Assembly (NCBI RefSeq): GCF_964355755.1
Contig: NC_092676.1
Location: 20,974,871 to 21,038,870 of the forward strand
Length of the DNA: 64,000 nucleotides
Direction: 5' to 3'
From: Antedon mediterranea
Taxonomy: Eukaryota > Animalia > Echinodermata
The notes below the pieces were generated by a model. That model did no database searches, was not told the origin of the DNA, and worked only from the letters and a program-made list of their open reading frames with translations. A program made the position numbers and the translations under genes. This document shows, one piece after another, positions 562 through 64,000 of the stretch (its first letter is position 1; the number at the start of each line of letters is the position of its first letter).

Positions 562-905
562 AGATGTATTGTCCCCCTGGAAAAATAATTCTTAAAAACA
601 TTTTTGTTGAATATTCCATTTTAATGTAACATAATAGTTATCCACTTGGACTAAAAATTGGATCGAAAAAAAATGTATTTACCTGAAAAAATGTAATTTA
701 AAGCAAAACATGGTCAAATTGGCTGCCAGCCAATGGATTTTTGGTGGAATTTAACCATTTATTTTGTCATTTTATAATTGAAAACAATATTTTTTCGTTT
801 TTTTTTCTATGGAAGTGATTAACTTTATTAAAACTACAAAATAACATATTCAAAGTTTGATTGAATTAATCCTCATTTTTCATGTTTTTGGGGAACAATA
901 CATCT
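562..905. mobile_element. Non-autonomous TIR element (MITE), TTAA-flanked, Kolobok-like
   Basis: TTAA|AGATGTATTGTCCCC ... GGGGAACAATACATCT|TTTA; same family at 4580-4806 and 57249-57506. A TTAA target with purine-purine termini fits Kolobok. Confidence 0.75.
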
Positions 906-909
906 TTTA

Positions 910-1575
910 GGAATTTGGTCTGAAAGTAAAGAAGGAAGGTTTACAGCGTGTCAAAGCTCATCCGTGTTATGCTTGCCAACACTATCAATGATATACTTAA
1001 CATGGTATTTAACATTATGTCACCATTGTATGTTAGCGGTTGAAAGATACCTGGCAGTGTTTCACCCATTTTATCACATTGGAAAAGTAAACAACCGCAT
1101 GTTAATGAAGTGGATATTTGCTTCATGGCTTTTTGTATCTTCTACACCTCTTCAAGTAATATATATCCAGTATCCTTTTGATATGTACTTGCAAGCAATA
1201 ATACCAACAAGCATGTTGATGATGCTTTGCTTCATTCATTTTCGAATCTTTGTTAAAAGTAGACAAACTTTGCGTCAAATCGCAGTGACACAGGTGTCGC
1301 TTGAGGATTCTACTGCCGCAAATTCTAGAAAAAACTTCAAAGCTATAAGAATGACTTTGTTGATTCTGATTGGTTTTATATGCTGTGTTTTTCCCGCTGT
1401 TGCGATAAGTGTACAGACACTAACTGGGAGCTTTCAATGTGCCAGTATGCTGGTAGGATATGCTTTGTTTTATTTTAATTCAGCGCTCAATCCAATTATC
1501 TACATTGCTTTAAGTCGGCCATTTCGAGAGGGATATGTTATAATATTGAAAAGAAGATTTCAATTTGTTAAATGA
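910..1575 (+). pseudogene. 5'-truncated rhodopsin-family GPCR (TM3-TM7), paralog of the downstream cluster
   Basis: Open frame from GIWSES (910) through CHH...VERYLAV..P and NSALNPIIY to the stop at 1575. TM1-TM2 are absent and a MITE abuts the frame. It could instead be a spliced gene whose 5' exon lies outside the window. Confidence 0.65.
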
Positions 1576-1913
1576 CTATTAACAAAAGATGGGCATACAA
1601 AGCTGCAAAGGAAACAAAAAAGAAGAAATTAATAAAATATGAAAACCGATTTGTAATCGTATCGCTTACCACTCTGGTAATAAAACGCGATTTCACTCTG
1701 ATCGATATGATGTGTTCCTTGATTGTCAGTTGATATTGGAATCTATAATGTATATGTATGGCTCTTTAATTGCATTTTTGACGAAGACACCGAGTTATAT
1801 CAGATATCAGTTAGTCATAAGCTGCAGTAGCAGAAGTTAGTATAATTAAAGTATTCTTATTTGTATTCTTAATTCTTGATTTATTACTGCAAGTTTTTAA
1901 AGTGCATTAAGTA

Positions 1914-2819
1914 ATGATGACGAACAACACTACCACCAATGAGGATCCAGTACAGTGCGTTTACACCGGTTGGAGCTTGGGCATTTTTATTTTAATCACG
2001 TTAATAATTTTAGCTGGCAACTTTCTTGTTATAAATTCCATTGTGAATATCAATGCATTAAAAACAACTACCAACACACTGGTGGCCAGTTTAGCAGTTG
2101 TTGATCTTTTAACCGGTTTGTATGGCATCCTTCTTATGGCTGTGACTACATCAGAAGGTATTTGGTTCGAGACAGAGGGAACTGCTGTAACGTGCTTATC
2201 AAATGCTCCGTTGTTATGTCTCTTGTGTACATCAATAATGACGTTATTATGGTGTCTTACATTGTTCCACCACGTTCTATTAGCACTTGAAAAATATCTG
2301 TCTATTTTCTACCCATTCTTTTGTCATAAAAATATGACCCAGCGATTGACCATAAAGATTATTTTATTTACTTGGTTGTTCAATATATCTTTAACTCCGT
2401 GGACGGTTATATATCGAAGATCAATACTGTTTAGGTACGCTCAGTCTGTAATTACTGTATCTTTGTCAATTTTGTTTTGTTTTGTTTATATTAGAATTTA
2501 TTTAAAGGCTAAGGAAACTTTGCGCCAAATAGCGTCGATGCAGTCAGCAGTGGGAAACCAAACGAGAAAAATTAGCAATTTTAAAGCGAGTAGAATGACA
2601 TTTCTAATTTTGTTTATTTTCTTTATTTGCTTTCTTCCTGTCAATGTAGTTACTGTAGTGACATTGTTGGGTGTATTTGAATGTAAATTTATGTTAATAA
2701 GTTATGCATTATTATATTTGAATTCTGCTATAAATCCTGTTGTATACGCCATTTGTAGTGAGGCGTTTAGAGATGGATACGTTGTGTCAATTAAAAGAAT
2801 GTTTTGCTGTGACAATTAA
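1914..2819 (+). CDS. Intronless rhodopsin-like (class A) GPCR, 301 aa
   Basis: 7 hydrophobic segments; GN (TM1), LAVVD (TM2), LEKYLSIFYP (DRY-equivalent), CFLP (TM6), NSAINPVVY (TM7). Confidence 0.93.
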   Translation: MMTNNTTTNEDPVQCVYTGWSLGIFILITLIILAGNFLVINSIVNINALKTTTNTLVASLAVVDLLTGLYGILLMAVTTSEGIWFETEGTAVTCLSNAPLLCLLCTSIMTLLWCLTLFHHVLLALEKYLSIFYPFFCHKNMTQRLTIKIILFTWLFNISLTPWTVIYRRSILFRYAQSVITVSLSILFCFVYIRIYLKAKETLRQIASMQSAVGNQTRKISNFKASRMTFLILFIFFICFLPVNVVTVVTLLGVFECKFMLISYALLYLNSAINPVVYAICSEAFRDGYVVSIKRMFCCDN

Positions 2820-3373
2820 TATAGTACGTTTTTTAATTATAGAAAGTGAAACACATTGTATAGTATAAGTATAAGTAGTATGTAAGTATTTAGTATAAGT
2901 ATTAATTATAACTCTCCTTAATTACTCTTCTACCACGAAACCCTAAAGCACCGTATGAAATTCAGGTTTCAATATTCAATTACAACTTTCCTTTTTATTT
3001 CGTATTCACATCCGTACAAGCTACAATTTTAAAGATATAAATATATTTAAAAAAAGACACTGGTATCATTATCATCTCAGGATTATTTTGTAATATTAAG
3101 CAAAAAATTTGATTTACCCTTTTCCAATTTCAAAAAGTAACCGTGTATCTTTAGCTAAGATAATGAAAGCCTAAATTAATGTTGATTGACGTGTTGTTTG
3201 TTTTCTGTCAGTTGATATGGAAATGAATAATGCTTTTGAATATCTTTTAATTGCATTTTCAAATTAAACCTGTTCATCATCGAGATGACATAACGTTATA
3301 CGACTCATTCAAGACTGTAACCAACTAGAAACGTTCGTGATAATCGTGAAATATTAGTGTAAATTACCCAAAA

Positions 3374-4279
3374 ATGACTAACAACACCACCAGAAGCGAG
3401 GATGCACCATACGAACAATGCATGTACACAAGTTGGAACCTGGGCATTTTTATTTCAATAACGTTAATAATTTTACCAGGAAACTTTCTTGTTATATATT
3501 CCATTGTGACTATCAATGCATTGAAAACAACTACCAACACACTGGTGGCCAGTTTAGCAGTTGTTGATCTTCTGACCGGTGTTAATGGTATCCTTTCTAT
3601 AATTGTACTCTCAACAGAAGGTATTTGGTTCGAGATTAACGGAACTAATGTAGTATGTTTATCAGATTCTCCACGTTGTATCCTGTCATTCGCAGCGCTA
3701 AGCATCTTGTGGAGCCTTACATTATATCATCATATTCTATTTGCAGGTGAAAAATATCTGGCTATATTCTACCCTTTCTTTTGTCATAAACATATGACCA
3801 AGCGATTGATGGTGAAAATTATTATTTCAACTTGGTTTTGGAGCATAGCTGTTTCGCCGTTTATGGTTATGTATCGAGCAATACCATTTTCTTTGTACTT
3901 TCAGTTGATTTTAACATTATTTGTGTTTGTATTGCTGTCTTATGTCTACATAAGAATTTACAGAAAGGCTAAGGAAACTCTGCGCCAAATAGCGTCGATG
4001 CAGACAACAGTCGGAAACCAGGCGGGAAAAATCAGCAATTTCAAAGCGGCTAGAATGACGTGTCTAATTATGTTTATTTTCTCTATTTGTTTTACTCCTG
4101 TCAGTCTGATGAATATTTTGACGTTAATTGGCCAATTTGAATGTAAATTTGTATTAATAACGTATGCGGTACTATATTTAAATTCTGCTATAAATCCTGC
4201 TGTATACGCCATTTGTAATCAGACGTTTAGAAATGGATACGTTGTATCAATCAAAAGATTGTTTCCATTAAACCGGTAA
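3374..4279 (+). CDS. Intronless rhodopsin-like GPCR, 301 aa, close paralog of 1914-2819
   Basis: Same motifs (GN, LAVVD, GEKYLAIFYP, NSAINPAVY); long stretches of nucleotide identity to the previous gene. Confidence 0.93.
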   Translation: MTNNTTRSEDAPYEQCMYTSWNLGIFISITLIILPGNFLVIYSIVTINALKTTTNTLVASLAVVDLLTGVNGILSIIVLSTEGIWFEINGTNVVCLSDSPRCILSFAALSILWSLTLYHHILFAGEKYLAIFYPFFCHKHMTKRLMVKIIISTWFWSIAVSPFMVMYRAIPFSLYFQLILTLFVFVLLSYVYIRIYRKAKETLRQIASMQTTVGNQAGKISNFKAARMTCLIMFIFSICFTPVSLMNILTLIGQFECKFVLITYAVLYLNSAINPAVYAICNQTFRNGYVVSIKRLFPLNR

Positions 4280-4579
4280 ATATATAAATGTAGCAAGTTT
4301 AGAATCCAGTTTTCATTGCGGGTACCGATAGATCGATGTATGTTATTTACTTGTCTCTTGAGACAGACGGATGCAACAACAAAAATCAGTGACCGTGTTC
4401 ACCATTCACACTTTGGCTAGGTGGAAACACTTACCAATACAATTTCAACAATCTTCTATCTATCTAAGTGAATAACATTTAAGGGAAATACTCATATTTA
4501 TTGAGTTAAGTGAAATATTCAATATTTAAGGAAAGTATTTCGCAATATTTTGTTGTTACCGCGATAATACGTACTTTAA

Positions 4580-4806
4580 AGATGTAGCCTATTGTCCCCC
4601 TGAAAAAAATGTTTACCTCAAAAAACTAAAATTTAAAGCAAGGCCATATACATGGCTGCAGTCGCATGCTCAAGTTAGGGTTTACCGACCAACCAACCGA
4701 CTAAAAATAGTAAAATTGGCTCCCAGCCAATTGATTTTTAGTTAAATTTAACCGTTTGTTTAGTCTTTTTATAAGTGAAACGTTGATTTTAGGGGACAAT
4801 ACATCT
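4580..4806. mobile_element. Kolobok-like MITE copy containing a nested HINE-like fragment
   Basis: TTAA|AGATGT..ATTGTCCCC ... GGGGACAATACATCT|TTAA; the internal ~4637-4705 segment resembles the reverse complement of the element at 16932-17013. Confidence 0.75.
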
Positions 4807-6921
4807 TTAACACGCGAACTTATCGAATATGTTCCTTATAAAAATAATTCAGATGTGAATTGTAATAGTTTATTACGTTTATTTGTTCATGTCACAGATA
4901 TACACACCTAATGTTTTACACTTTGTTTAAATAAATTAAATTTTTAGTACTAGATTTAGTTCATTATGCATAATTAGGATTTTAATTTAATAACAAATTA
5001 ATTAAACAATCGTATATTTTTCAATACAAAAATACTATTAATATTTTACTATGTTGTGACTCAGATTTAGCAGATTGTTATTATTACTATCATCAAATCA
5101 GTTACTTGACGTAACAGGTAAATTATTACTGTATCTTAACATTATTATTGATATGTTTTATAATATAGAAAGCAAGCACAATTAACACAAATATTCGTTA
5201 TCTCAGTATTTTGTCGTTGTCGTATTTAGTCACCAAATAAAATGTTTGTGATAATAATGTTTACAAAAATAGAACATAAAATAAAATGAACAGCAACGAG
5301 ATAGTGTATAATTTTCTATTATGAGTGATATCGATTATTTCTATTATAAAATAGAAAAATAAGTGCAACCGATTTCTACAGTCTATAGTCTTATTGGCGG
5401 CGATTTAAAAAAAATGTTGACATTATGTGTCACACCTATAATTGCATTGGGACTGATTTTTTTTTCGTAGATGAGTTATAAATGCAAAACAAAATTATGA
5501 AGTATTCATTTCATACCGAACATCATTATATCTCAATGCGCATGCCAAATCAAAGTGCAGTGTCTTCATCCATACCCGATAAAAAAACATGTACATTTTG
5601 GTAATTACAAGTTTGTCAAAGATAATAAACTAATTGCTAAAATGTTCAGAATAACGAATCATATTTAATTGAAAAGTAATATCAGAAAATTAACGAAAAA
5701 TCTTTCAATCATCTTCTAATTACAGTACCAATATTTTTTATTAAATGCTGTAATTCGACACGAGTTTTGACTACGACAAAATAAATATTCGAACAATGAT
5801 CGATACCTTAAAATCTTTTATTCACTTGAATATTGTTTCCACTCTGTATCAATCTCTGGAGTACACACTTAAAACACAATTAAGAGTATAGAGTTTCCAT
5901 CCTTATTATTCTATCTAAATCTAAAACATATATAAAATACTAATAATGATTATAATAATGAACGAAAGAAATATAATACAATCCAGAATTCGGTACGTGT
6001 ATCTTAAATTTACACGCTATTTTTAGATGATAAATTTAACTGTAGTAAATAAAGGCTGCTTTTAATAGGTTAATGTCAATTTATTAAATGTTTGTGCCGT
6101 GTGTGTTAATTTGTTGACCATTTTTTTTGTAATCCTATTCTTTACTGTTGTTATAGCTACCATTACCGTTTCTAATCACCGATTGCGTTTATACGGTCAA
6201 TAATATTAATCGGATTTCTTAAAACCTCATTAGTTTCTTATATAGTTGTATAAAGTAAGGCCTGGATGTATATAGTAGGTAGATCTAGAGTTGGATGATT
6301 TATCTTGTAATGGTTGTATCGTGCATCACATCAAGGTAACTCCGCCTAAACTACAGGATCTGATGAATATCCAGCTATAGTACATTTATTAAAGATTTGA
6401 CATTATTGTAAGCTATTTGATGTAGTATGCCTGTCTAGCTCCAAATTGGGTAAGAGTTTGCAGACAACTCAAACTTTTGAGTTGGGTTAGGGCGGACTCA
6501 ACAAGTTTTTCTTATTTAAATGGACTACTTAACTTGATTTGTGTCCGTTTGAGATCTAAATGTGGAGCCGTCTTTAAATTATCAGATGAACAAGGATTGC
6601 TTTATTTTTGGGGATTACAGTTCAGTATTGTCAAGTCCATTGCAGCATCTTCGAAAAAATGTTTTTGTTTTTGTTTTGTAGTTTGAATTGATTGTTTACA
6701 TTAGACATTATTGTTGAAGGTTTAGGCCTATATGCAATTTCCAAAATTGATATTGATTTTGAAGTATCAGGAAATTGAATCAGATGTCAGTTTCCATTCA
6801 TACATAACAACTTTGCCAAAAGGCTGAAATACGGTAGTTATTATATTTCAGGAGAACATTTTTATTCTGATTATGAATTGTGTGGAGTTAAAATCGTACA
6901 TTTTCTTCTAAATTGTTTACA

Positions 6922-7833
6922 ATGACCAATTACTCATATATAGACGATATTGGTGAGAGTCAACAATGCTTCTATCCAATTTGGTGTTTGTTGATTCTAG
7001 GTATAACAACAGTACTTGTTATTGTGGGTAATGTTCTAGTAATACTCGCCGTCTTCTCAACTGACAGTCTACAAACCGTGACCAACACGTTAGTTGTAAG
7101 CTTGGCGTTTGTCGATTTCTTGTCTGGCTTGACCGGTTGTCTGATCATAGCGTCAATGGCAACAGAAGGAATCTGGTTTGAAAACGACGAAGGAACAACT
7201 TTAATATGTCCTACCCTATCTCCACTATGCCTCACATCATTAGCGTCTTCTTTCACCGGACTTTGCTTAACAATATACCATCATGTACTTTTAGGCCTAG
7301 AAAGATATTTGGCTATTTTTCATACGTATTTTCATCTGGAAAGAATCAACAAGCGATTGATGCTGAAGATTATCCCTCTCGTGTGGATTTCAAACTTAAG
7401 TTTAATTCCTTTGGTTCCGTATTATTACGCAGAACCTTTGGTATTATACATTGAGATTGCTATTGGAGTGTTTGTGCTGACGCTACTATGTTTCATGCAT
7501 TTAAGGATCTTTGTTGAAACTAGAAAGACTGTACGGGAAATAGCAGCAATGCAAGTATCTAACCACCAAGACTCGAAGAAACAACCCAAGAAAAACTATA
7601 AAGCTATCAGAATGACGTCATTTATTATGTGCGGTTTCTTCTGTTGTTCTATCCCCATTACTGTAGTCAATTCGTTGACCCTTTTAGGTTTATTTACGTG
7701 TAATAGCATATTAATATCTTACGTTTTATTTTATTTTAATTCAGCTTTGAATCCAATAATATATGCGGCTTGTAATCAATCGTTTCGGAAAGCTTTTATT
7801 ACAATAATAAAAAGAAGATTTCTGGATTATTAG
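6922..7833 (+). CDS. Intronless rhodopsin-like GPCR, ~303 aa, more divergent paralog
   Basis: ATG at 6922 (MTNYS...); GN, LAFVD, LERYLAIFH, NSALNPIIY; EGIWFE loop shared with the cluster. Confidence 0.92.
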   Translation: MTNYSYIDDIGESQQCFYPIWCLLILGITTVLVIVGNVLVILAVFSTDSLQTVTNTLVVSLAFVDFLSGLTGCLIIASMATEGIWFENDEGTTLICPTLSPLCLTSLASSFTGLCLTIYHHVLLGLERYLAIFHTYFHLERINKRLMLKIIPLVWISNLSLIPLVPYYYAEPLVLYIEIAIGVFVLTLLCFMHLRIFVETRKTVREIAAMQVSNHQDSKKQPKKNYKAIRMTSFIMCGFFCCSIPITVVNSLTLLGLFTCNSILISYVLFYFNSALNPIIYAACNQSFRKAFITIIKRRFLDY

Positions 7834-19200: not shown

Positions 19201-22200
19201 AATAAGGTGGTATAATTAAGAATTGGGTGCAGATCACTGTTATTTAGTAGGCCTAGTAATAATATTATTGATAGATATTACGTAGGCCCTATTTCGAATG
19301 CATTGCTTTAACATTTCAAGTAATTTTTTTGTGCTATTTTATAAACAATTTACAGTGTGAAAAGAACCTAATTTTTACATTAATTTAACCTCTTTTCACT
19401 GCAGAATATTATAGCCTTTTATTTTTATTTTCAATTGTTTCTTTAATTTCATTTTATTTAATACATACAGTAACAATTTGACGACGTATTTCTACATTCA
19501 GCCAAAATATTACATATCGTGTATTTGACCTCATACAGTACAACACTATTAAACCTAAGCCATTGTAATTACTATACGTGTCGACAAGGCTGCTCTATGC
19601 CCTTATTGTTTCACCCTTCTCCTAAATCTAATAATCACGTTTATTTAATCCACCGCGGGATGTTGATTATAAAATTATTCCTTGTATATTACTTCATATA
19701 AACATCAACAGAATCGAGATGTCCCATGCGGTTTTGTAATGTAATTATATTAAGTTAAATTATAGCATTATGTCGGAATTAAATGTGATAAAACAATGTA
19801 AATTGTGTTATTTTGAAATCAATTTATACTAGGAAAAATAACCATTTTAAACAATTTCAGGGTATGATTGTTTCAAAATTGTTAAATAAAATTGTTTTAT
19901 TGATTAATAAGTTTAATTGAAACGTTCCGCAGGCACGCAGAAGGACACTATGATAAGGTGTACTGATTAATTGAAAATTATCATCTACCTTCAGGAGGTG
20001 TCGAGGACAAGTGCTTTGTTTGCAATATCGCTATGGGGTTTTGCTAATTAGACCTACCTGAAAAAAAAACTTCAAAAAGGGCCGAAATTATAGATACACA
20101 GTTAGGAGACTTTCCAACTGAGTTTGGGCATGGAGGTCTTTTTTATACCCCCATGGTTTGGGCAGGTTTCAATCTTTGTTGTTATAGGGCCTGAACATAC
20201 AAAGTGCTTGTGGCTTAATGCGACCTTTCTTATGAGCATGACCAGAATGACTAAGAATTGGGTGCAGATCACTGTTATTTAGTTTCTTTCCAGGATCTAT
20301 TAGAGCCTTAAATATGATGTAGACTTTTTTTTGTAATGTTCTTGTTTTTTGAGTTCGTGTTGTGTCCGTTGGATATTGTGCTCCGCCAACAGAGCAAACA
20401 GAATTTCTATGTTTTTCCTAAAACAAATGATAATAAATGATACTTGACTTGACTTGACTATTGGACTCAATAGCTGTGTACTCGCGCGGCGTGTCGTGAA
20501 AGCGAACACTCGCTATTATTTTATATTCAATACATAATGCCTTATTGGTAAAAGGTTTCGTTTATAAATACGCATAACCAACCATTAAAAGGACCATAGG
20601 CCTACTGTAATATTATGAAATCATCTCTTAAGCGAAATATCTGTATTTGGGTGCACATGCTATTAACACGTTTAAGTTCAAAGAGTTCATTATACAAATT
20701 ACCTCACCCAACGAACGAATGCAAACCCTTCCAATTTAATTTACCAAAAGTATGGAACCGATTAATACTACTGCATAACCTACTTATTGGGCGAACAAAG
20801 CAACTTCACACCCCTTAACTTGATATTAATTCTCCAAAGCTAGGGAGATAACTCGGTCACTAAGTTGAGTTATTCAATCAATCACATTTACTTTTTTAAT
20901 GTGAATACGCCTAGGCCTATACAAAAGTACTGTATATAGTCTTATACTTTTGATATCGTAACTATAACCATGAACTTGTTGGTACTCCCCAGTGTCTGCC
21001 GCGTCTCCAATTTATCTAAACAACAAAATGATAGGTTTTTCGTTTATGAAATCATAAAAATACACGACCATACAGAAGTAAGATGCGAATCTTTCGTATA
21101 AAACACATTTTTATTTTATGAACTGACATTTGTGTTTAAGAACTGTAGCTATTTTCTAAAACTTGAAACGTATTTGGTGTTGCTAGGCCTATTAGTAATT
21201 ACTATAGTCTTTTTTCATTTATATGTAATTTTACTTTCTATGGACCAGAGATTCCGAAATAAAAGACTGAATAGAAGATTGATTATATAAATATTTAAGT
21301 TAAACCATAATCAATAACTGCTCTTTGCTCCAAAAGACTTTTGTAGCCAGCCTGCTGATATTGGACCGTGCAACAGACTGACTGGAAAGTTTTTCTTCGA
21401 TGAAAATGCTCAGATATGCCGTTCGTTTACGTACGGTGGCTGCGCTGGAAATAGAAATCGTTTCGAAACAAAAGAAGATTGTCAATCCGTTTGTATGAGA
21501 CAGAAAACAGGTGACCACTGATTGCGGATTGTGGATTGCAAAATTAGAATTAACACCTTTAGATGTTTGAAGTGACATAATCTACTAATCTGCATTTTAA
21601 TTAATCTTTTTCCTTCATCCAGCATCTTGCTTTCCCGTAGTTTTAAAAGTATATGGAGAAGCACAGCCGTAACTTGTTAGTATTACTTAACATGTTTTTC
21701 AACAGAAATGATTGATGTGGTACATGTGTGAAGCATTTAATCCGGTGTTATACAATATAAGCTAAATGCATGTTAACCCCGTTGTATAATGCCACATTTT
21801 GGTATGATGACAATTCAACGTTATCGCAACTTTTTATACACTTATTTACTTATGAAAGTGTATTATATCCACATATTTATTAATTGTTTGCTTTTTTCTT
21901 AACCACGGAGGCCCAGATCAACTCATTGTTGTTCTTCCTCGGGGCGGTGTACACACACAAAATAATATTATATTGTTGTTATAGAGGCTAAATTATTGTT
22001 ATTCGGGCGTGTGGCGCAGTGTGTTTGACGTTATACTACTAACGTGAGATCGAGGTTCGAATCCAACTCTCGCCGCATTGCTTAAATTGTATCCTTAGGC
22101 AAGATACTTTACTTACGTTTGCCTCTCTCCAACAGGTGTATAAATGGGAACCCGGTTAGATAAAGATACAACTTTGCACTGATTACTAGATGCATATGGG

Positions 22201-50161: not shown

Positions 50162-52596
50162 ATGTTGATGCCAAAGAAAAACCGTGTTGCCATTTATGAA
50201 CACTTATTCAAAGAAGGTGTAATGGTAGCCAAGAAAGACTATACTCTGGCAAAACACCCAGAACTAGATGTTCCTAACCTTCAAGTTATCAAAGCCTTGG
50301 GTGTAAGTATTTTGATTTATTGCAAAGAAGATTGTACATGCTCACTTTTTTCTAATAATACAGAAAAATATATTATTATTTTATTCTTTTTATTAATTAA
50401 ATATTTAACACTAATGTGTGTCAATGTTTAAAAAAATAGAAGCTGGTTGGTTTATCGGTTGGCTTTCTGTTTTTATTACCTGAAACATATTTTATAAATT
50501 CTAAAACCTTTTGTTTTTTATTTTGTGCTATTTTTTAGGCACTATAGTATCAGAACAACACATTTTTTTAGAGGAGGGAGTGGGATATCCCTACACTTTG
50601 TTGTGTCTGAAATGTGTCTGCTTAATAGAGTTCTACAGTTTTTTAAACTTATATGTATATATTACGCTCCTCTACTTTCTGCTATATTCATATATAGTAT
50701 GTTGTTTTGTAGAGCACTCTTCATTTCGAAACGGTGCATTTTTGTTGTGAATACTATTAGCATTTTGCAAAGCACGCTCGTTGAGCTTGTGCACTCTTTG
50801 TGTTCATAATCAGTGTACCATGTCCCGCATACCTGGCTCAGCCTATATATTGTGCCAGTTCTGCGGTACATTTCATTTAGAAACCTGAGCTGCACTGACG
50901 AGATCTAATAAGATCGAAACAGTACTGTCTCCAGTATATATATATATAATGTATATTTGAATGTAAATATATAATGTATATTTGAATGTAAATTTATTGT
51001 AGTCTTTGAAGTCCCGTGGCTATGTAAAAGAACAGTTTGCTTGGAGACATTACTATTGGTATCTGTCAAATGAAGGTATCCAGTACTTGAGAGACTTCTT
51101 GCACCTTCCACCAGAAATTGTGCCATCAACCCTCAAACGACAGGCAAGACCAGAGCAGTCAAGACCACGACCCAAAAGTATGTCAATTTCTGTTATACTG
51201 TAGATGAAAAATGATAATTTATTTTATGAGGGTGGTCCATCCAGCTGAAGCTGACCCTAACAAAATATATCATGACAAGACAACAATTAAATGGAATGGT
51301 TGAAACATGCATTGGTTTTATCTGATTTAAAATAGCAACAGTTGATTCGCAATTTTCATTGAGGACCTGCCCCGGCAACAGACAATGCTGCTAATTGCAA
51401 AATACGCTCTATGTGATTGGCAGCATTGCGTTAGCATGGGCAACCACATTGGATAACCGTTTGATCTCATAGCCAATGAGTCAATCCTTGTATTATTTTG
51501 TCCTTTTTGTTTTTAATTGTAGGTTTTGACAACCGTGGTCCAAGTTCAGCCGAAGCAGGCCAGAGAGATAGTTACCGAAGAGGACCAGGTGAGTGATTCT
51601 AAATATAGTAGCATTGCAATATACAGTAGACCCTTCATTTTAAGTACTGTACGAGACCAAAAGACCAGGCCTACCCTCACATCTAGCTAGGCCTAGCCTA
51701 CTATAAAAGTATATGCAGGCTGTGTGATATTTTATAAAGAAAAAATCAATGCTCTTGTATTTTCTATCAATAAAAACAGTCCTGCTGTAGGGGGCACTGC
51801 ACAGCCATGGCTTATGGTCTGCTGTTTATAAATTGCACCCTCAGTATAAGAAAATTAAATTACTAAAAATGATGATGTCATCGATCATTTTATGTGTATG
51901 TGTAGGGGGTTACCCCGGTGAACTGGTTCACACAATAGCCCCTGTATCAGGAGGATTACCACCTATCTGATAGGACAGTGATTAATTTACTATTGGTAAT
52001 CCTTGGCCACATTGCCTAAAGACATAAAATAAATATGTGTATGTATAATCTATGGAACATTAAATCAGGGTACGTAAAACAAAGCTTCTACTGTACTTAT
52101 TGTTGCTTGGAATACAAGAATATGACTTTCCAGACATAATTTTGCAAGAAAGGAAATAGTGGACATTTAGAAATATGTCAATTAATACAATAACTAATGT
52201 AACCTTTTTTACAGCTGGTGGCGGACCAGACAAGAAGGGTGAAGCCGGTGCCGGAGCCTCTCCTGCATTTGAATTTGTACGTAAATGTTTTTATTTATTG
52301 CTGTATACTAAAATTATTAGTAGTAGCCCCAGCCCCTTCTACATTTTGAAACATCCAAATTTAATTTTACAATTTTAAGACCCTGGTGTGTGTCTCTCCA
52401 CTCCTCCATATTCAAACATTTTAAAATGTAATCTGAATTTGAAACTATGCCTTGGTTCTAAACCAACAATGTGCTAAGGAAGGATAATTTATAATTGTTT
52501 TCTCACTCTACAACTCTGTCGACAATATCTTGAATGTTTTTGCTTTTTTTATTTCAGAAAGGAGGATATGGGCGTGGTCGACCAACACAGCAGTAG
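50162..52596 (+). CDS. RPS10: 40S ribosomal protein S10 (eS10), 160 aa
   Basis: [26 protein letters not shown]...[34 protein letters not shown]...[19 protein letters not shown]. Exons 50162-50302, 51003-51177, 51523-51588, 52215-52276, 52558-52596; AATAAA at ~52651. Confidence 0.97.
50660..50934 (+). mobile_element. Retrozyme-like repeat unit in RPS10 intron 2
   Basis: Near-identical to 62849-63116; ends in a hammerhead ribozyme followed by (TA)n. Confidence 0.8.
50890..50934 (+). ncRNA. Minimal type I hammerhead ribozyme
   Basis: CTGCA-CTGACGA-GATCT-AATA-AGATC-GAAA-CAGTACTG-TC-TCCAG: intact core, 5-bp stem II, palindromic stem III, GUC cleavage site after 50929, one mismatch in stem I. Confidence 0.8.
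51289..51451 (+). ncRNA. Candidate intronic H/ACA snoRNA
   Basis: Strong 3' hairpin (TGCCC/GGGCA lower stem; 17-bp upper stem 51383-51399 / 51412-51428; internal pocket), ACA at 51446-51448, ~70 nt upstream of the 3' splice site in a ribosomal-protein intron. H box is imperfect (TGAGGA). Confidence 0.45.
51901..52045 (+). mobile_element. 5'-truncated SINE 3' end
   Basis: Starts with AGGGGGTTACCCCGGTG, shared with the SINE at 35330-35652; ends AAATAAA; flanked by direct repeats TATGTGTATGT. Confidence 0.55.
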
Positions 52597-56245: not shown

Positions 56246-59200
56246 ATGACGCCTTTAAAAATCGTTTACTTCTGTTTACTTGCAATCAGTATGGTCAACG
56301 GAGTGTGTAGTATGCCTACAGGTCACAATTCTGGATCGGACATCCTAAATATCATTGGACCAAGAAATAATTGTTCATCTGTGAGACTGTGCGATCTTCA
56401 TCATTATGAACTAGCTTTAACAGCGACTGAAATCAACAGGTTTCCTAAAGAGCCGATTTCATGTTATTTAAATAAAAATCAACAAATTAGGTAAGATTAT
56501 TATAATATTAGTAAAAGGTTTTGCCCTACTCTGACGTTTGTACTTTATACTGGCTTGCTAGTGATCATGATGTCGTGGGTTCGAGCCGGACCCGAGAATT
56601 TTTGCGCAAGTAGGTCTACTCTCAATGTACTTAGTAGTACAAATTAGAGACTGACGAAATGGTACTTCACAGTATCTACAAACAATTACAGTTATTATAT
56701 TATAGAGATATTGATAATCATAATAATATTGATGATGATTGATAATGATATGCTTATTATACATGTTTCGATTAATGAGGAATATCTTCATAGAGATTGA
56801 TTTTTAAAAATAAACTAAACTACCTCAATATTGTATCATATTTTTACAGATACTACATTTGTCGCAAGTGCTCTGTGTGTGAACCGTTATCTGCTGTTCT
56901 TCTTGAATGTGGAAGAAAACACGATACAATCTGCTCCAATCATTCAAAAGGTAATTTCAAAACATAATTTTGTACTAAATAATTCTTACCTTAGCATTAA
57001 AATTCTGAAGTTGCTTTGATAGACTCGAGTTCTGGTCGCTAGGGCGGCCGGATGTGATGGAGGAGAGGAAGCTTCTTTAGTGGAAAAAAAACCACTATAA
57101 ATTCACTTTTAATTTATCGCATTTTAGAAAGCAGTGGGAGGGGAAGACGGTTCGTCGGCTACGAGCCTTCGTCATTCCCCTCAAATATTCATATTATGCA
57201 CATATAACCTAATCAATGTTTAATACCATAGAATATATTGTTAATTAAAGATGTATTGTCCCCCAAAAACATGACAAATTAGGAATAATTAAATTTGAAT
57301 AGGTTATTTTGTAAAAAAAGTTTTCACTTATAAAACGACAAAATAAATGGCAAAATTCAACCAAACAATTATTGGCTGGCCAATTTTAATGTTTTTTGCG
57401 TTAAATTATATAGATACATTTTTTGGTCAAAGTGAATAACTATTCAAATGGCATATTCAACAAAAATTGTTTAAAGAATTATTTTTTTCAGGTGGAACAA
57501 TACATTATTAAATATTGTTTTTTTAACAGTTGAGTCAAGAGGCACCGTTGCATCTTCAATAAAAAGCTTGTCCACATTGACCATCGAAGAAACAATCCCT
57601 GTGGATGCAAATACAGAAAATAAAGATAGTAAACGGTCGCTATATATCATTGTTACTGTTGGTGTAGTCTTTCCAAATGTGATTCTTGTATATTTCTATA
57701 TCACGCTAAGGAGATGGTTAGTTATACTTTCTTATTTTTACTTTTATGTTGAAACCTGACATGCGAACGAAAAACAATCACTTTAGTTATAAATCTAACG
57801 TAAGCCTATGTATACGCTATGCAATGGTGGTATAATGCCATACAGACTGGAAAATAATAATGGTATTAAGAAAATATTGTCCAAAACGAAAAGATTTGAA
57901 CACGAAAACTTTAAAGAAAATATACTATTAACTGACCGTTCAATGATGCGTACTATATTGCACGCTATGTGAGCCACAATCGTCTAATCAAATCACAGGA
58001 ATTGTTTAATTACATAAGTTATAAATTCACATTCTTTTGACAAAATAATAGCTTCTTTCAAACGCGTCATGGATAGGTCTATACTTGATAAATATTTTGT
58101 TTACAGTATTATGAATATTTAAAATAACTATGATGTAGGCCTACGCAGTAATTTTGAATATCAAATTATTCCTCTTTCAGGAAACGTCTTTTCAAAAGAA
58201 TTTGTGCAACAGCAAAGCTTACAAATGAATCCACTGTCAGCGTAATTCCCGCATCGTCTGAAAGAACATCAGTGGGAGTAACCACAACTTGCAATGTGTC
58301 TTTAGGAGGCACAGCCACTACTCCGATGACTATGATAACAAGCACTAAGAAGACATCATACAATCCATTCTGGCTTGAAATGAAAGCAACCATTGGACCA
58401 GAAGGTGGTGTTGTCAGTGACCCTAGATCTGGCGTGAACCTGATTATTCCACCCGGTGCTATTCCAGAAACTCACCCCAAACAAGAGATTATCGTCCGAG
58501 TTGCACTTAAACCATCTAATTTTGGGCTTAACCAGCAAAAGGATTTAACTCTGCTAGGACCAGTGGTTGAGTGTTTGTCGCCTGGTTTAGCAGAATTCAA
58601 CTCTAATGTCACTTTGGTGGTGCCACATCGTGCTAAACTCAACCCAGACTGGAAGTTCCAGGTTCTACATTCCGAAGACAAGTACTCGGATCCCGTTTCC
58701 AAGTTTCGATGGACAGTAACAAGTTCTAATCACGATGCGAAACATGGTGTGCACTTTGAGGTTGACGAAAATTTCTTTAGGATCAAAACAAGTCACTTTA
58801 CAACATACACATGTGCTGGGAGCTGTTCTAGAAAGGCGCCCTTGAATTTGCAGGTTGTGGTGTATGGGGACTATGTTCATATTGACGGGAGGAAACAAAC
58901 AGTCGATCTACGGTGTTACGTCTGTGATACAATAAAGGATTATTCTCATACATTTCGTGTTAACGAGCGCAATGGTCCTCTGTGTGTACCACGACCAATC
59001 AACCATTTCTTTGACAAAAAGACAAAGAAAATTGAATTGTTTTTTCCAGAAGATGATTTTGGAACAGACTTCCAGTGGACATCTGAGACGTTTAACGATT
59101 CTCTTCCGAATTCAAGGGTAATTATCAATATTGATCAGTCACCATTAACACCGTTATCAGAATAAACATCATCATGATAAACATCATCATGATACACATC

Positions 59201-60715
59201 AGCATGCTCAACACAAGCATGATAAAAACCATCATGATCAACACCATCATGATCAACACCAGCATTATCAACACAAGCATGATCAATACCAGCATGACCA
59301 ACACTAGCATGATCAACACTAGCATGATCAACACCATCATGATCAACACCATCATGATAAACACCATCATGATCAACAACATCATGATGAACACTATTAT
59401 GATGAACACCAGCATGATCAACACCAGTATGATCAACATCATCATGATTAACACCTTCGTCATTAACACCATCATGATCAACACCATCATGATCAACACA
59501 TATTGAACTCATTTTGCTAAGTTTATTGATTACACATTTATAAGAAATATCTTTGAAGCACGTAGCCCGATGTTGTTCAGAGGCGATTCCACATTACGAG
59601 GCCTTCACACTGAAACCTAAAGACGAGGGAACACGGGTCGACAGTTTAGAGATGACATTGAAAATTGTTGCGAATGGTTTAACAGAAATCATTGGTCCAA
59701 TAAGGATGATTACAATGGTACGTTATACGAATAATATTGTAGTTGTTTGAAATCTATAAACTACAGTATAAAATCTAATTCATGGCAGTGTTAAACTAAT
59801 GATATATTAAGTTGTAAGTACTCATTGTTAAACTAATAACGCAAATAGACAAAACTGAATGTGGAACCTTATTGATCAAATTAATGAATTTTTTATTTAG
59901 GATACTGGACGATCTCAATCACCAGCTAACTATACAGGTAGGCCTATGTGACATTAATTTAAAATAAGAAAATGTCACAAAAAATGTGATGACATCAGAC
60001 ATGATGATATCATAACACTACCATATTTGGGCATATCAAAACCATATTTGGGTACATCACACTTTTGTTCAAACTAGTTTAATTTAATGTCGTATGCACA
60101 GCTAATCCTTATATTTAAAATTTACATAAATGTGAAATAGTTATCTTCCTGTATAATGACGTTACTGTTCTAAAATCATATACCATGTATTCCCGTAGTG
60201 CATCCCGTATTGCGGGGATACCTAGAATTTTAGAACGGCGTAACCTTTTATGAAATGTATGCATATTTACATAATTATGATGCGGCGTTGATACTTCGAG
60301 GTATTGCTTCCAACGCATCTCCCTTTTATGTCTACACAAAATAGCATAAAGTAAAACTTTGCATCATTACATTATTGTATATAATAATAAAAATAATGTT
60401 TTTTGTTTAAATATAGATATTGTGAGTAACGAAACATTAAGAGAAATTTCACGAGAGATTCCCAGAGATAAGTGGAAAGATGTCTACCGCACATTACATG
60501 ACTTTGCGAAGTTTGAAGGAAGCGCGAACATTGATATTGAAAATATCGAGCACAACAATCAATCAGAAATGGGAGAAATGAAATACCAGGTATTGATGCT
60601 ATGGCGTACTAAAGCGGGCAGACAAGCTACGAAGACTGCATTAACGCAAGCCCTCAGGAGCTGCCAACTTAACAGTATCGCAGACGATTGCATCAAATTA
60701 GAGAGCACAATATAA
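56246..60715 (+). CDS. Type I membrane death-domain receptor: SP - TNFR-like CRD - TM - ZU5 - UPA-like - Death domain (~654 aa)
   Basis: Exons 56246-56490, 56850-56950, 57530-57716, 58181-59117, ~59559-59717, 59901-59937, 60417-60715 (1965 nt, in phase). CRKCSVC...ECGRKHDTIC (TNFR CRD pattern); TM SLYIIVTVGVVFPNVILVYFYITL followed by RRWKR; ZU5 IGPEGGVV...GVNLIIPPGAIP...GPVVEC..PH...TSHFT; death domain ISREIPRDKWKDVYR...YQVLMLWRTKAGRQATKTALTQALRSCQLNSIAD. Confidence 0.85.
57249..57506. mobile_element. Kolobok-like MITE (third copy, inverted relative to 562-905)
   Basis: TTAA|AGATGTATTGTCCCCCAAAAACATG ... GGAACAATACATT. Confidence 0.7.
59165..59500. repeat. 15-bp minisatellite (ATGATCAACACCATC/AGC) x ~22, intronic
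   Basis: Visible tandem array filling the intron between the ZU5 and UPA exons. Confidence 0.93.
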
Positions 60716-61459: not shown

Positions 61460-61745
61460 TTTCTTTTGGATGATCCAAAGTCAAGCTTTCGCTGGTCAAC
61501 GACGCAGTTAATCGTGAGTGAGTCTCTGTGACCATGAGGAACCTCCATGCTGTGACTTGGACTTGTTACCATTAGATCTCGTATTTGGTATAGCGCCATC
61601 TATGGAACGTTCAGGTTTACCCAAATGGGATTGTCGGGGCCTCCTCTTTAGTAAGTTGTATAATTTTGGGAGTTCCAAACCGCCGTCTTCTCTGTTCATA
61701 GTGTTAGTTAATTAAATAACACTATGAACAGAGACGACGGCGGAG
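61460..61745 (-). mobile_element. Penelope-like retroelement 3' fragment with inverted 5' duplication
   Basis: Minus-strand peptide MNREDGGLELPKLYN resembles the NRDxG..L...Y end of Penelope GIY-YIG domains; downstream CGAAAGCTTGAC hammerhead-like remnant; palindrome at 61680-61743. Confidence 0.65.
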
Positions 61746-62796
61746 TCTGTCCATGATAACATTACATTTTTTGAATGCATTCTTACCGTAATTGTTTACC
61801 CTATTTAAAAATAGAAGTTTTGCCTGTGACGTCATTTATAACAATTGCTTCTCCAGTGAAGTGAATTACGACATTGTCGGGGTTTTCCGTAAGATTTAAA
61901 TAGATAGCAAAATGTTAGATAGCAAACAATTAGATAGCAAATAATCGGAGAGGGTAGGGAGGGATGGTGCTGAAAGCGAAGCGAAAATCACTTGCCAGAG
62001 GGTCAGGTTGCCGCCAAGAGCGAGATTTACCGAAGCAACGGCGTTCTAGCGTAATTTGAGACCGTTTTAATATATTTTAGAGGCGAGTTTTTAAAGTGCA
62101 AAAAATACCTAAGAATATTAAAAGTTTGACTGACAGGTAAAAAAAGCTACGCCGATGAACGAATTACTAAAAATCGTAAAAAAATCCTCTTATTTTAGGG
62201 TAAAGTAGGCCTACGGATATTGCGCCTCTTTTCATCCATCAACGAATGTTCTCAGTTTAGAAAATTTGAGCGTATCTCAACATTGAATAATTGACAATAA
62301 TTTTCAGTGACAAGTATTTTTATATAGGCAAAAAGTGTGCATCTTCGACTGGTAGTTGTTGATATCATTTAAGCCAACAAACGCGAAATTATTACTGGTC
62401 ACTGATCCTACTTTTTAACTGAGAGGTATCAAGTGCATTTTGTTTAGTCCGTAGTAATTAGTACAGTCTTTTTGTTTATTTTTAATTCATTTATGTGTAA
62501 ATTTACTTTGTATGGACCAGAGATTCCGAAATAAAAGATTGAATGAATAAAATAAATGAATAACCAAGAGGACGGCATTGTTCATTGTCCTCTTATTGAT
62601 ACCCAATATAATATGGTTTTACAGATTTTAACATAAAGATTCATCAATATAACTCTATATATCTTTATATTTTGCAAAGCACGCTCGTTGAGCTTGTGCA
62701 CTTTTTGTGCTCATAATCAATGTACCATGTCCCGCATAACTGGCTCAGCCTATATATTGTGCCAGTTCTGCGGTACATATTATTTCGAAACCTGAA

Positions 62797-62841
62797 CTGC
62801 ACTGACGAGATCTAATAACATCGAAACAGTACTGTCTGCAG
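62797..62841 (+). ncRNA. Minimal type I hammerhead ribozyme
   Basis: CTGCA-CTGACGA-GATCT-AATA-ACATC-GAAA-CAGTACTG-TC-TGCAG: intact core, perfect stem I, one stem II mismatch. Confidence 0.8.
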
Positions 62842-63071
62842 ATTGGATATTACGCTCCTCTACTTTCTGCTATATATAGTATTTTGTTTTGTAGAGCACT
62901 CTTCAGTTCGAAACGGTGCATTTTTTGTGTGAATACTATTAGCATTTTGCAAAGCACGCTCGTTGAGCTTGTGCACTCTTTGTGTTCATAATCAGTGTAC
63001 CATGTCCCGCATACCTGGCTCAGCCTATATATTGTGCCAGTTCTGCGGTACATTTCATTTCGAAACCTGAG

Positions 63072-63116
63072 CTGCACTGACGAGATCTAATAAGATCGGA
63101 ACAGTACTGTCTGCAG
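63072..63116 (+). ncRNA. Type I hammerhead ribozyme with mutated core (GGAA for GAAA)
   Basis: CTGCA-CTGACGA-GATCT-AATA-AGATC-GGAA-CAGTACTG-TC-TGCAG: perfect stems; the core substitution is predicted to impair cleavage. Confidence 0.7.
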
Positions 63117-64000
63117 ATTGGATATATATATATATATCGAAACTTCACATAAACCATTTAAACGATTTGTTACGAAAATGACGTTCCAAAACACTATTTT
63201 ACAATCCTACTTTTAAATTGTCCCGGCCCCCCGGCTGTCGTGTCTGTAGTGTCGTATTGAAAATTGCTTTGGGAATAATTAGAACCAAAATGCAAAATAA
63301 GAATTGTTATTATAATTATTTAGGAATTATAGCCATACTCACCTGTGGTGGCGCCAGGTTGGAATAGGTGAGGGAAGGGGGTTGTTGCTAGTACGTGAAG
63401 AAATTTTCGTAAATGGTTCACTACACGGGGTTTCGACGTGCGGAATGCATTTCATACACGTTTAAGATTTATTCATTGAAAATCAAGTTCTTTAATGAGG
63501 TAGAGTAACATATGTTAAAATCTGTAAAACCATATTATATTGGGTATCAATAAGAGGACAATGAACAATGCCGTCCTCTTGGTTATTCATTCATCATTCA
63601 TTCAATCTTTTATTTCGGAATCTCTGGTCCATACAAAGTAAATTTACACATAAATGAATTAAAAATAAACAAAAAGACTGTACTAATTACTACTGGACTA
63701 AACACAATACACTTGGTACCTCTCAGTTAAAAAATGACCAGTTATAATTTCGCGTTTGTTGGCTTAAATGATATCAACAACTACCAGTCAGAGATGCACA
63801 CTTTTTGCCTATTTAAAAATACTTTTATCACTGAAAATTATTGTCAATTATTCAATGTTGAGATACGCTCAAATTGTCTAAACTGAGAACATTCGTTGAT
63901 GGATGAAAAGAGGCGCCATATCCGTAGTTCTATACTTTACCCTTTGATAGACTATGTAAGAGGAACGAAATAATCTAATTTTCATTAAAAATGTTTGGGT

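What the first reader, a model, noticed from the sequence alone, without database searches (positions are those of the whole stretch)
62668..63122. Hammerhead-ribozyme retrozyme family: 275-nt tandem units predicted to yield circular RNA
Seen: a non-coding repeat in partial tandem, each unit ending in a type I hammerhead (stem I CTGCA/TGCAG, CUGACGA, stem II GATCT/AGATC, GAAA, palindromic stem III CAGTACTG, GUC site), cleavage sites 275 nt apart, and a third near-identical dispersed copy in RPS10 next to (TA)n. Each copy has a different single lesion (stem I, stem II, core), so the consensus is a perfect ribozyme. Known: animal non-LTR retrozymes are ~170-400-nt tandem repeats with minimal hammerheads that are processed to circular RNAs. 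Inference: a recently mobile retrozyme family, or the pseudo-LTR of a Penelope element, probably undescribed in this lineage.
Basis: partly seen in the sequence, partly recalled or inferred. Interest (0 to 1): 0.85.

Follow-up and report, generated by a model that had tools for sequence, protein, structure and literature searches.

The report
Feather-star retrozyme with coral-shared hairpin
These are damaged copies of a young, 275-letter, protein-free jumping element in a feather-star genome that carries a predicted self-cutting RNA motif, likely spreads with a borrowed Penelope-type enzyme, and shares a second small predicted RNA hairpin with its coral counterparts.

Summary
In detail: two hammerhead motifs 275 nt apart (cuts after 62836 and 63111), a third copy in an RPS10 intron, each with a different lesion. 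Contigs of public runs show the family majority has the intact motif. The host is a crinoid. The family looks like a non-LTR retrozyme, but mainly dispersed: depth rises about 17-fold from 5' to 3', copies share a 3' end about 10-14 nt past the cut site followed by AT-rich DNA, and head-to-tail joints are a small minority. The RPS10 copy is absent from a related organism's intron, so insertion is recent. These are Penelope-type insertion marks; no RT or GIY-YIG ORF lies in the window. A circle is not shown, and this locus is predicted to be a poor source of one. New point: coral retrozyme-like units and a third family share stems I and III and a bulged hairpin in the unit body, with compensatory changes, although a review says such repeats have no conserved motif. 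Verdict: new member of a known kind, with one testable extra.

The parts
62669..62846 (+). Copy 1: 5'-truncated unit (3' 178 nt), of a different sub-variant than copy 2
   Evidence: three of its differences recur in other family copies
62797..62841 (+). Type I hammerhead motif 1; predicted cut after 62836; C.C mismatch in stem II at 62819
62847..63121 (+). Copy 2: full 275-nt unit
63072..63116 (+). Type I hammerhead motif 2; predicted cut after 63111; core GAAA reads GGAA (63099)
63122..63137 (+). (AT)8 tract at the 3' end: target or tail
   Evidence: same kind of 3' end in loose ends
62679..62703 (+). Bulged hairpin shared with coral-type units (copy 1)
62954..62978 (+). Bulged hairpin shared with coral-type units (copy 2)
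50659..50934 (+). Copy 3: one-unit monomer in the RPS10 intron, from unit position +11 to +5 of the next turn
   Evidence: empty site in run X12
50772..50796 (+). Bulged hairpin (copy 3)
50890..50934 (+). Type I hammerhead motif 3; C.C mismatch in stem I at 50931; distal stem I strand missing
   Evidence: lesion present in an X1 contig with 0 differences
50935..50948 (+). (TA)n tract after copy 3, followed by a candidate 8-nt target duplication

Best explanation
The three copies belong to a high-copy, recently inserting, non-coding 275-nt repeat with a predicted type I hammerhead, which is likely a non-LTR retrozyme pasted into AT-rich sites by a Penelope-like (PLE) RT/endonuclease acting in trans. 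Shown: unit, intact majority motif, 5' truncation with a common 3' end just past the cut site, TA-type flanks, some head-to-tail joints, an empty orthologous site. Inferred: intact tandem loci are transcribed and self-cut to 275-nt monomers that a host ligase may close to circles; the PLE enzyme nicks AT-rich DNA and starts copying about 5-14 nt 3' of the cut site, so the template must have an uncut or re-joined cut site (circle or multimer, not a cut linear monomer); most copies stop early, some make one unit (copy 3). The tandem here joins two different sub-variants and is predicted to be a poor source of circles. The bulged hairpin in the body is predicted to be a cis-signal, most likely for the mobilising protein.
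For: Motif and lesions. Majority intact. Stem II changes on both sides across three families: 2 of 4 pairs, 97% of 132 cells paired (11 distinct rows picked by me from 118 loci plus the window). X1 summed depth 1,876 in the first bin to 32,563 near the hammerhead against 25-39 on RPS10 flanks; loose ends behind 50934 begin ATTGGAT in X1, X6 and X12. Head-to-tail joints in X1 (depth 323.9), X5, X4 and X12. Empty RPS10 site in X12 (skip of 337, depth 203.5 against about 190 on the flank). Coral-type relatives behave alike: 52 of 84 copies stop matching the next unit 8-9 nt after the cut, 41 of 52 measured copies extend under 200 nt upstream, 49 of 90 run into a TA-type microsatellite within 16 nt, 3 of 21 unit starts are one-unit 5' ends like copy 3. 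Unit folds well, z -3.07, 0 of 200 shuffles. No ORF over 78 aa. 5' truncation, partial tandems and microsatellite bias are PLE traits (PMC8557442 passages); AT-rich nicking and internal start were shown for an anole PLE (PMC11167929); retrozymes derive from PLE pLTRs (bioRxiv 10.64898/2026.07.22.740005).
Against: All three Rfam scores are below the gathering score. The minimum-energy fold of each copy pairs the CUG of the core with the palindrome instead of forming the active fold. Both ribozymes of the tandem are damaged. Copy 1 differs from copy 2 at 9 of 173 positions while copy 2 differs from copy 3 at 3 of 173, and three copy-1 letters are shared family variants, which does not fit one enzyme running 1.65 turns round one circle. 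Eight of nine Xenopus retrozyme dimers did not cleave in vitro, and hammerhead cleavage was not needed for insertion by the anole PLE. No PLE partner was identified: the hairpin descriptor had 0 hits away from hammerheads, including beside the PLE fragments in the coral loci. Summed contig depth is not a copy number (tool note).
Confidence: 0.72

Rival explanations
1. The unit is simply the 3' pseudo-LTR of an autonomous Penelope-like element elsewhere in the genome; the copies are its 5'-truncated insertions and never form an independent RNA.
For: The 5'-to-3' depth gradient, fixed 3' end and partial tandem are what truncated PLE copies give. No genome was held to exclude a parent; only about 20 of over 200 loose-end rows were shown per call.
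Against: No RT or GIY-YIG ORF in the window (tblastn best E 0.38). Upstream of the unit start the contigs shown go back to the previous unit. The hammerhead is canonical (helix II 5 bp, helix III with palindromic loop), whereas animal PLE pLTRs carry minimal ones (PMC4209133). In coral loci the PLEs next to such units have their own 3' ends and are separated by microsatellites or flank DNA.
Confidence: 0.13
2. A non-autonomous PLE derivative that is copied from linear, uncut read-through transcripts; the ribozyme is kept but circles are rare or irrelevant to spreading.
For: Mixed-variant tandem; cleavage not needed for PLE insertion in vitro; most tested Xenopus dimers inactive; tandem joints are a small share of the family.
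Against: The core stays invariant in over 95% of depth in three runs and stem II covaries across families, which points to selection for cutting; the coral family of the same size class is expressed as circles (PMC7229834); one-unit monomers bounded at the priming point occur in both hosts.
Confidence: 0.13
3. A local satellite or duplication with a chance hammerhead-like motif.
For: Rfam scores below threshold.
Against: 0 of 100 shuffles, covariation, dispersed high-copy family and empty site.
Confidence: 0.02

Closest known systems
Metazoan non-LTR retrozymes (coral Acropora millepora, mussel, axolotl; Cervera and de la Pena 2020, PMC7229834; vertebrate survey bioRxiv 10.64898/2026.07.22.740005)
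   Same: Unit of 275 nt, GC 41%, no ORF, canonical type I hammerhead with short palindromic helix III, tandem and monomer copies, well-paired predicted fold. Stems I and III are letter-identical to a 241-246-nt family in coral DNA, the size class reported for coral retrozymes.
   Different: Crinoid host (no paper found); here mostly 5'-truncated dispersed copies; cleavage and circles untested; whether the coral family I fetched is the published A. millepora one could not be checked (supplement unreadable).
EN+ Penelope-like elements and their pLTRs (PMC4209133, PMC8557442, PMC11167929)
   Same: 5' truncation, partial tandem, fixed 3' end downstream of a hammerhead, AT-rich or (TA)n targets.
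   Different: No ORF, canonical rather than minimal hammerhead, no inverted 5' copy of the unit.
Rfam Hammerhead_HH9 / Hammerhead_1 (clan CL00010)
   Same: Best model on all three copies; same CUGCA/UGCAG stem I and topology.
   Different: 22-29 bits, below the 52-bit gathering score; HH9 membership is not met.

Membership tests
non-LTR retrozyme | Canonical type I hammerhead in the unit | tested here: met
   majority intact
non-LTR retrozyme | Unit of about 170-400 nt, GC under 50% | tested here: met
   275 nt, GC 0.41
non-LTR retrozyme | Head-to-tail copies in the genome | tested here: met
   window tandem; go-back joints in X1, X4, X5, X12; a minority of the family
non-LTR retrozyme | No protein-coding capacity | tested here: met
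   longest stop-to-stop frame 78 aa
non-LTR retrozyme | No PBS or PPT | not tested
   no search was run
non-LTR retrozyme | Highly self-paired monomer | tested here: met
   -78 kcal/mol, z -3.07; prediction only
non-LTR retrozyme | Target duplication longer than 4 bp when present | tested here: inconclusive
   8-nt AT-rich candidates at both loci; low complexity
non-LTR retrozyme | Self-cleavage in vitro | not testable with these tools
   bench test
non-LTR retrozyme | Expression as linear and circular monomer RNA | tested here: inconclusive
   only contigs were available; they cannot show ends, strand or level
'active' retrozyme locus (Li et al. 2026 definition) | Two consecutive units with complete hammerheads | tested here: not met
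   this locus: stem II mismatch and GGAA core; other loci unknown
PLE pseudo-LTR | Adjoining RT/GIY-YIG ORF | tested here: not met
   window only; genome not held
PLE pseudo-LTR | Minimal hammerhead (long helix II, no real helix III) | tested here: not met
   against PMC4209133
PLE pseudo-LTR | 5' truncation, partial tandem, AT-rich targets | tested here: met
PLE pseudo-LTR | Inverted 5'-truncated copy of the element | tested here: not met
   the flanking inverted repeat has no match to the unit
Rfam Hammerhead_HH9 | Gathering score 52 bits | tested here: not met
   29.2, 22.4, 21.8 bits

The most novel reading that the evidence does not exclude
Crinoid, coral and a third host's retrozymes are one lineage (very old, or moved between marine hosts) held together by a conserved two-part RNA: the hammerhead plus a bulged hairpin 110-140 nt upstream of the cut that is the recognition signal for the Penelope RT, which primes just past the re-joined cut site of a circle. 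The hairpin would be the first conserved cis-motif of animal retrozymes and a handle to find their unknown mobilising enzyme.
Probability: 0.35. Interest if true: 0.65.

Novelty: new member of a known kind. Interest (0 to 1): 0.42.

Why it matters
Animal retrozymes are known, and how they are mobilised is still open. This family adds an echinoderm case with a datable insertion (filled and empty RPS10 intron). The useful extra is the shared hairpin: a review states that metazoan retrozyme repeats show no conserved motif pointing to their partner (PMC7761336). A motif with compensatory changes across phyla can be mutated in binding or TPRT assays and used to search for the partner PLE.

Tried and rejected
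Sequencing runs: no RNA holder listed. X6 is RNA by its spliced RPS10 joint and holds pieces of the element; no head-to-tail joint was listed for it, none for X13, and one of depth 22.8 for X5, whose kind is not on record; all are contigs of unknown library type, so this says nothing for or against a circle. X4 holds element pieces without RPS10 cover: trace DNA or another host, not resolved. Local alignment of the unit body to coral units alone was not significant (120 and 143 of 1000 shuffles as high); significance came from the L026 family (0 of 1000) and from the doubled 11-mer and hairpin tests, which were designed after seeing the data. PLE ORFs near coral units (L062 RT and GIY-YIG; fragments in 8 loci) were examined in 6 loci and rejected as the parent. 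The flanking inverted repeat was rejected as part of the element (copy 3 lacks it). Protein atlas gave no answer. Supplements of PMC7229834 (too large) and of the bioRxiv preprint (closed) were not seen; they list retrozyme sequences and may already show the hairpin or an echinoderm family. Earlier findings by sequence and by place: none.

Full report
Observation. The stretch 62669-63121 holds a 5'-truncated unit followed by a full 275-nt unit and (AT)8; a third copy lies at 50659-50934. Each ends in a type I hammerhead motif: stem I CTGCA/TGCAG, core CTGACGA, stem II GATCT/AGATC, GAAA, palindromic CAGTACTG and a GTC site. Lesions are as reported: C62819, G63099, C50931. The motif is far above chance (0 of 100 shuffles). 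Rfam's HH9 model hits all three but below its gathering score. The palindrome can pair between two copies (10 bp, -13.4 kcal/mol). That the GGAA change is strongly harmful rests on recalled hammerhead mutagenesis, not on a call.

Host. The RPS10 exon 51003-51179 is 100% identical to the eS10 of the feather star Antedon mediterranea; among the 120 hits listed of 969, the next full-coverage hits are 90%.

Family structure. I laid 7 of the 20 runs listed; all are contigs. In X1, which matches the RPS10 flanks without a difference, flank depth is 25-39 while summed depth on the unit rises from 1,053 to 30,697 and from 1,876 to 32,563. The tool warns that summed depth is no copy number; I read it as hundreds to about a thousand copies, most of them 5'-truncated. 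Loose ends after the hammerhead start with ATTGGAT and run into AT-rich, unrelated DNA in X1, X6 and X12 (about 20 of over 200 rows shown). The head-to-tail joint has depth 323.9 in X1, roughly ten times single copy and a lower bound. The majority hammerhead is intact: position 63099 reads A in all listed depth (62 contigs in X1), so the copy-2 lesion is private or an assembly error; the copy-3 lesion is confirmed by an X1 contig.

Recent mobility. X12 (a different organism code; 19 other letters and 9 gaps in 400 nt of intron) has a contig that skips 337 nt at the RPS10 site at flank depth, while carrying the family and tandem joints. X7 holds the filled site in another sample: its contig carries copy-3 letters and runs on into the RPS10 intron flank. 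An 8-nt target duplication is possible at both window loci but the sequence is AT-rich.

Relatives. About 90 have the same stem I; most are a family of 241-246-nt units with a different stem II, and five loci form a third family 84-88% alike over 44-54 nt. An ORF beside one unit has only stony corals among its named hits (one locus tested), and the size fits the coral retrozymes of PMC7229834 (220-245 nt; Results parts 1-2 of 3, Discussion and Methods read; supplement unreadable). Stem II changes on both sides across the three families. The coral family shows the same insertion marks: 52 of 84 copies end 8-9 nt after the cut, 41 of 52 extend under 200 nt (a rough BLAST measure), 49 of 90 run into TA-type repeats, and 3 of 21 unit starts are free 5' ends at the same point, like copy 3.

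Shared hairpin. An 11-mer occurs twice in the coral unit and twice, with one mismatch each, in the window unit (0 of 2000 shuffles). Its second copy is the 3' side of a hairpin with a 4-bp outer stem, a 4-5-bp inner stem and a 2-nt 3' bulge, which free folding gives in all three families. On 12 chosen rows, 98.8% of 84 cells pair and 3 of 7 pairs change on both sides (4 of 500 shuffles); the rows are related and two of those changes are the crinoid lineage alone, so this is support, not proof. The descriptor is absent from 5000 shuffles of the unit and occurs exactly three times in the window; in 773,576 bases of fetched loci all 52 hits lie near a hammerhead on the same strand. PMC7761336 (10 passages) states that metazoan retrozyme repeats show no conserved motif that points to a partner. 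Rfam has no family for it.

Mechanism. Shown: the anatomy and insertion marks above. From papers: PLE insertions are 5'-truncated, partly tandem and biased to microsatellites (PMC8557442, 12 of 27 passages); a purified PLE nicks AT-rich DNA, starts inside the RNA and does not need hammerhead cleavage (PMC11167929, parts 1-2 of 4); retrozymes co-occur with and derive from PLE pLTRs, and 8 of 9 dimers tested did not cleave (bioRxiv 10.64898/2026.07.22.740005, parts 1-3 of 5); animal PLE pLTRs carry minimal hammerheads (PMC4209133, part 1 of 4 and passages). Inferred: since copies run 5-14 nt past the cut site, the template had an uncut or re-joined site; one-unit monomers fit one turn round a circle but also microhomology at ATAT. 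Against a single-circle origin of this tandem: copy 1 is 9 of 173 from copy 2, copy 2 only 3 of 173 from copy 3, and three copy-1 letters are shared variants. I put circles for the family at about 0.6 and for this locus at about 0.15 (judgement).

PLE linkage. No RT or GIY-YIG ORF among 35 ORFs of 100 aa or more (6 window ORFs scanned in Pfam; tblastn best E 0.38). PLE fragments lie in 8 of the 118 loci; in the 6 examined they have their own ends, which fits shared targets.

Novelty. Searches for 'hammerhead ribozyme' with 'crinoid' gave 0 papers and 'retrozyme' with 'echinoderm' 2 records of one PLE paper; the library is incomplete and key supplements were not seen. The scan already holds 78 findings with these words in at least 10 genomes (unchecked AI notes). 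This is a new member of a known kind; the hairpin is the part worth following.

Noticed in passing
window 62197-62635 and 63511-63943: A 440-bp inverted repeat (413 identities, 15 mismatches) encloses the tandem. Its middle (about 63590-63660) is a separate high-copy short repeat, also at 21170-21272; the rest is low-copy. A transcript across it would form a long hairpin with the retrozyme in the loop.
   Followed up: partly
window 63016-63027, 62906-62914, 63058-63066: A-box-like and B-box-like matches inside the unit, the A-box about 40 nt before the second B-box-like site: a possible Pol III internal promoter; patterns recalled, no chance test.
   Followed up: no
window 62926-62927, 63099, 63498: Window letters seen in no contig laid, including X1: private haplotype or assembly errors at this locus.
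   Followed up: partly
run X4: Element pieces up to 100% identical and a tandem joint, without any RPS10 cover, under another organism code: trace DNA or a second host.
   Followed up: no
L062:509-3588, L016:1332-3028, L004:1962-2794: Coral retrozyme-like units sit directly beside PLE RT/GIY-YIG remnants, often via microsatellites.
   Followed up: partly
L026, L061, L079, L099, L103: A third hammerhead family from one metagenome record set, closer to the window family than the coral one; host not determined.
   Followed up: partly
window 865-7833: Cluster of four intronless rhodopsin-family GPCR ORFs (one scanned: 7tm_1).
   Followed up: no
window 58158-60715: ZU5-domain ORF, a 15-nt-period tandem array (59165-59499) and a Death-domain ORF.
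   Followed up: no
window 61680-61743: A 64-nt near-perfect palindrome.
   Followed up: no
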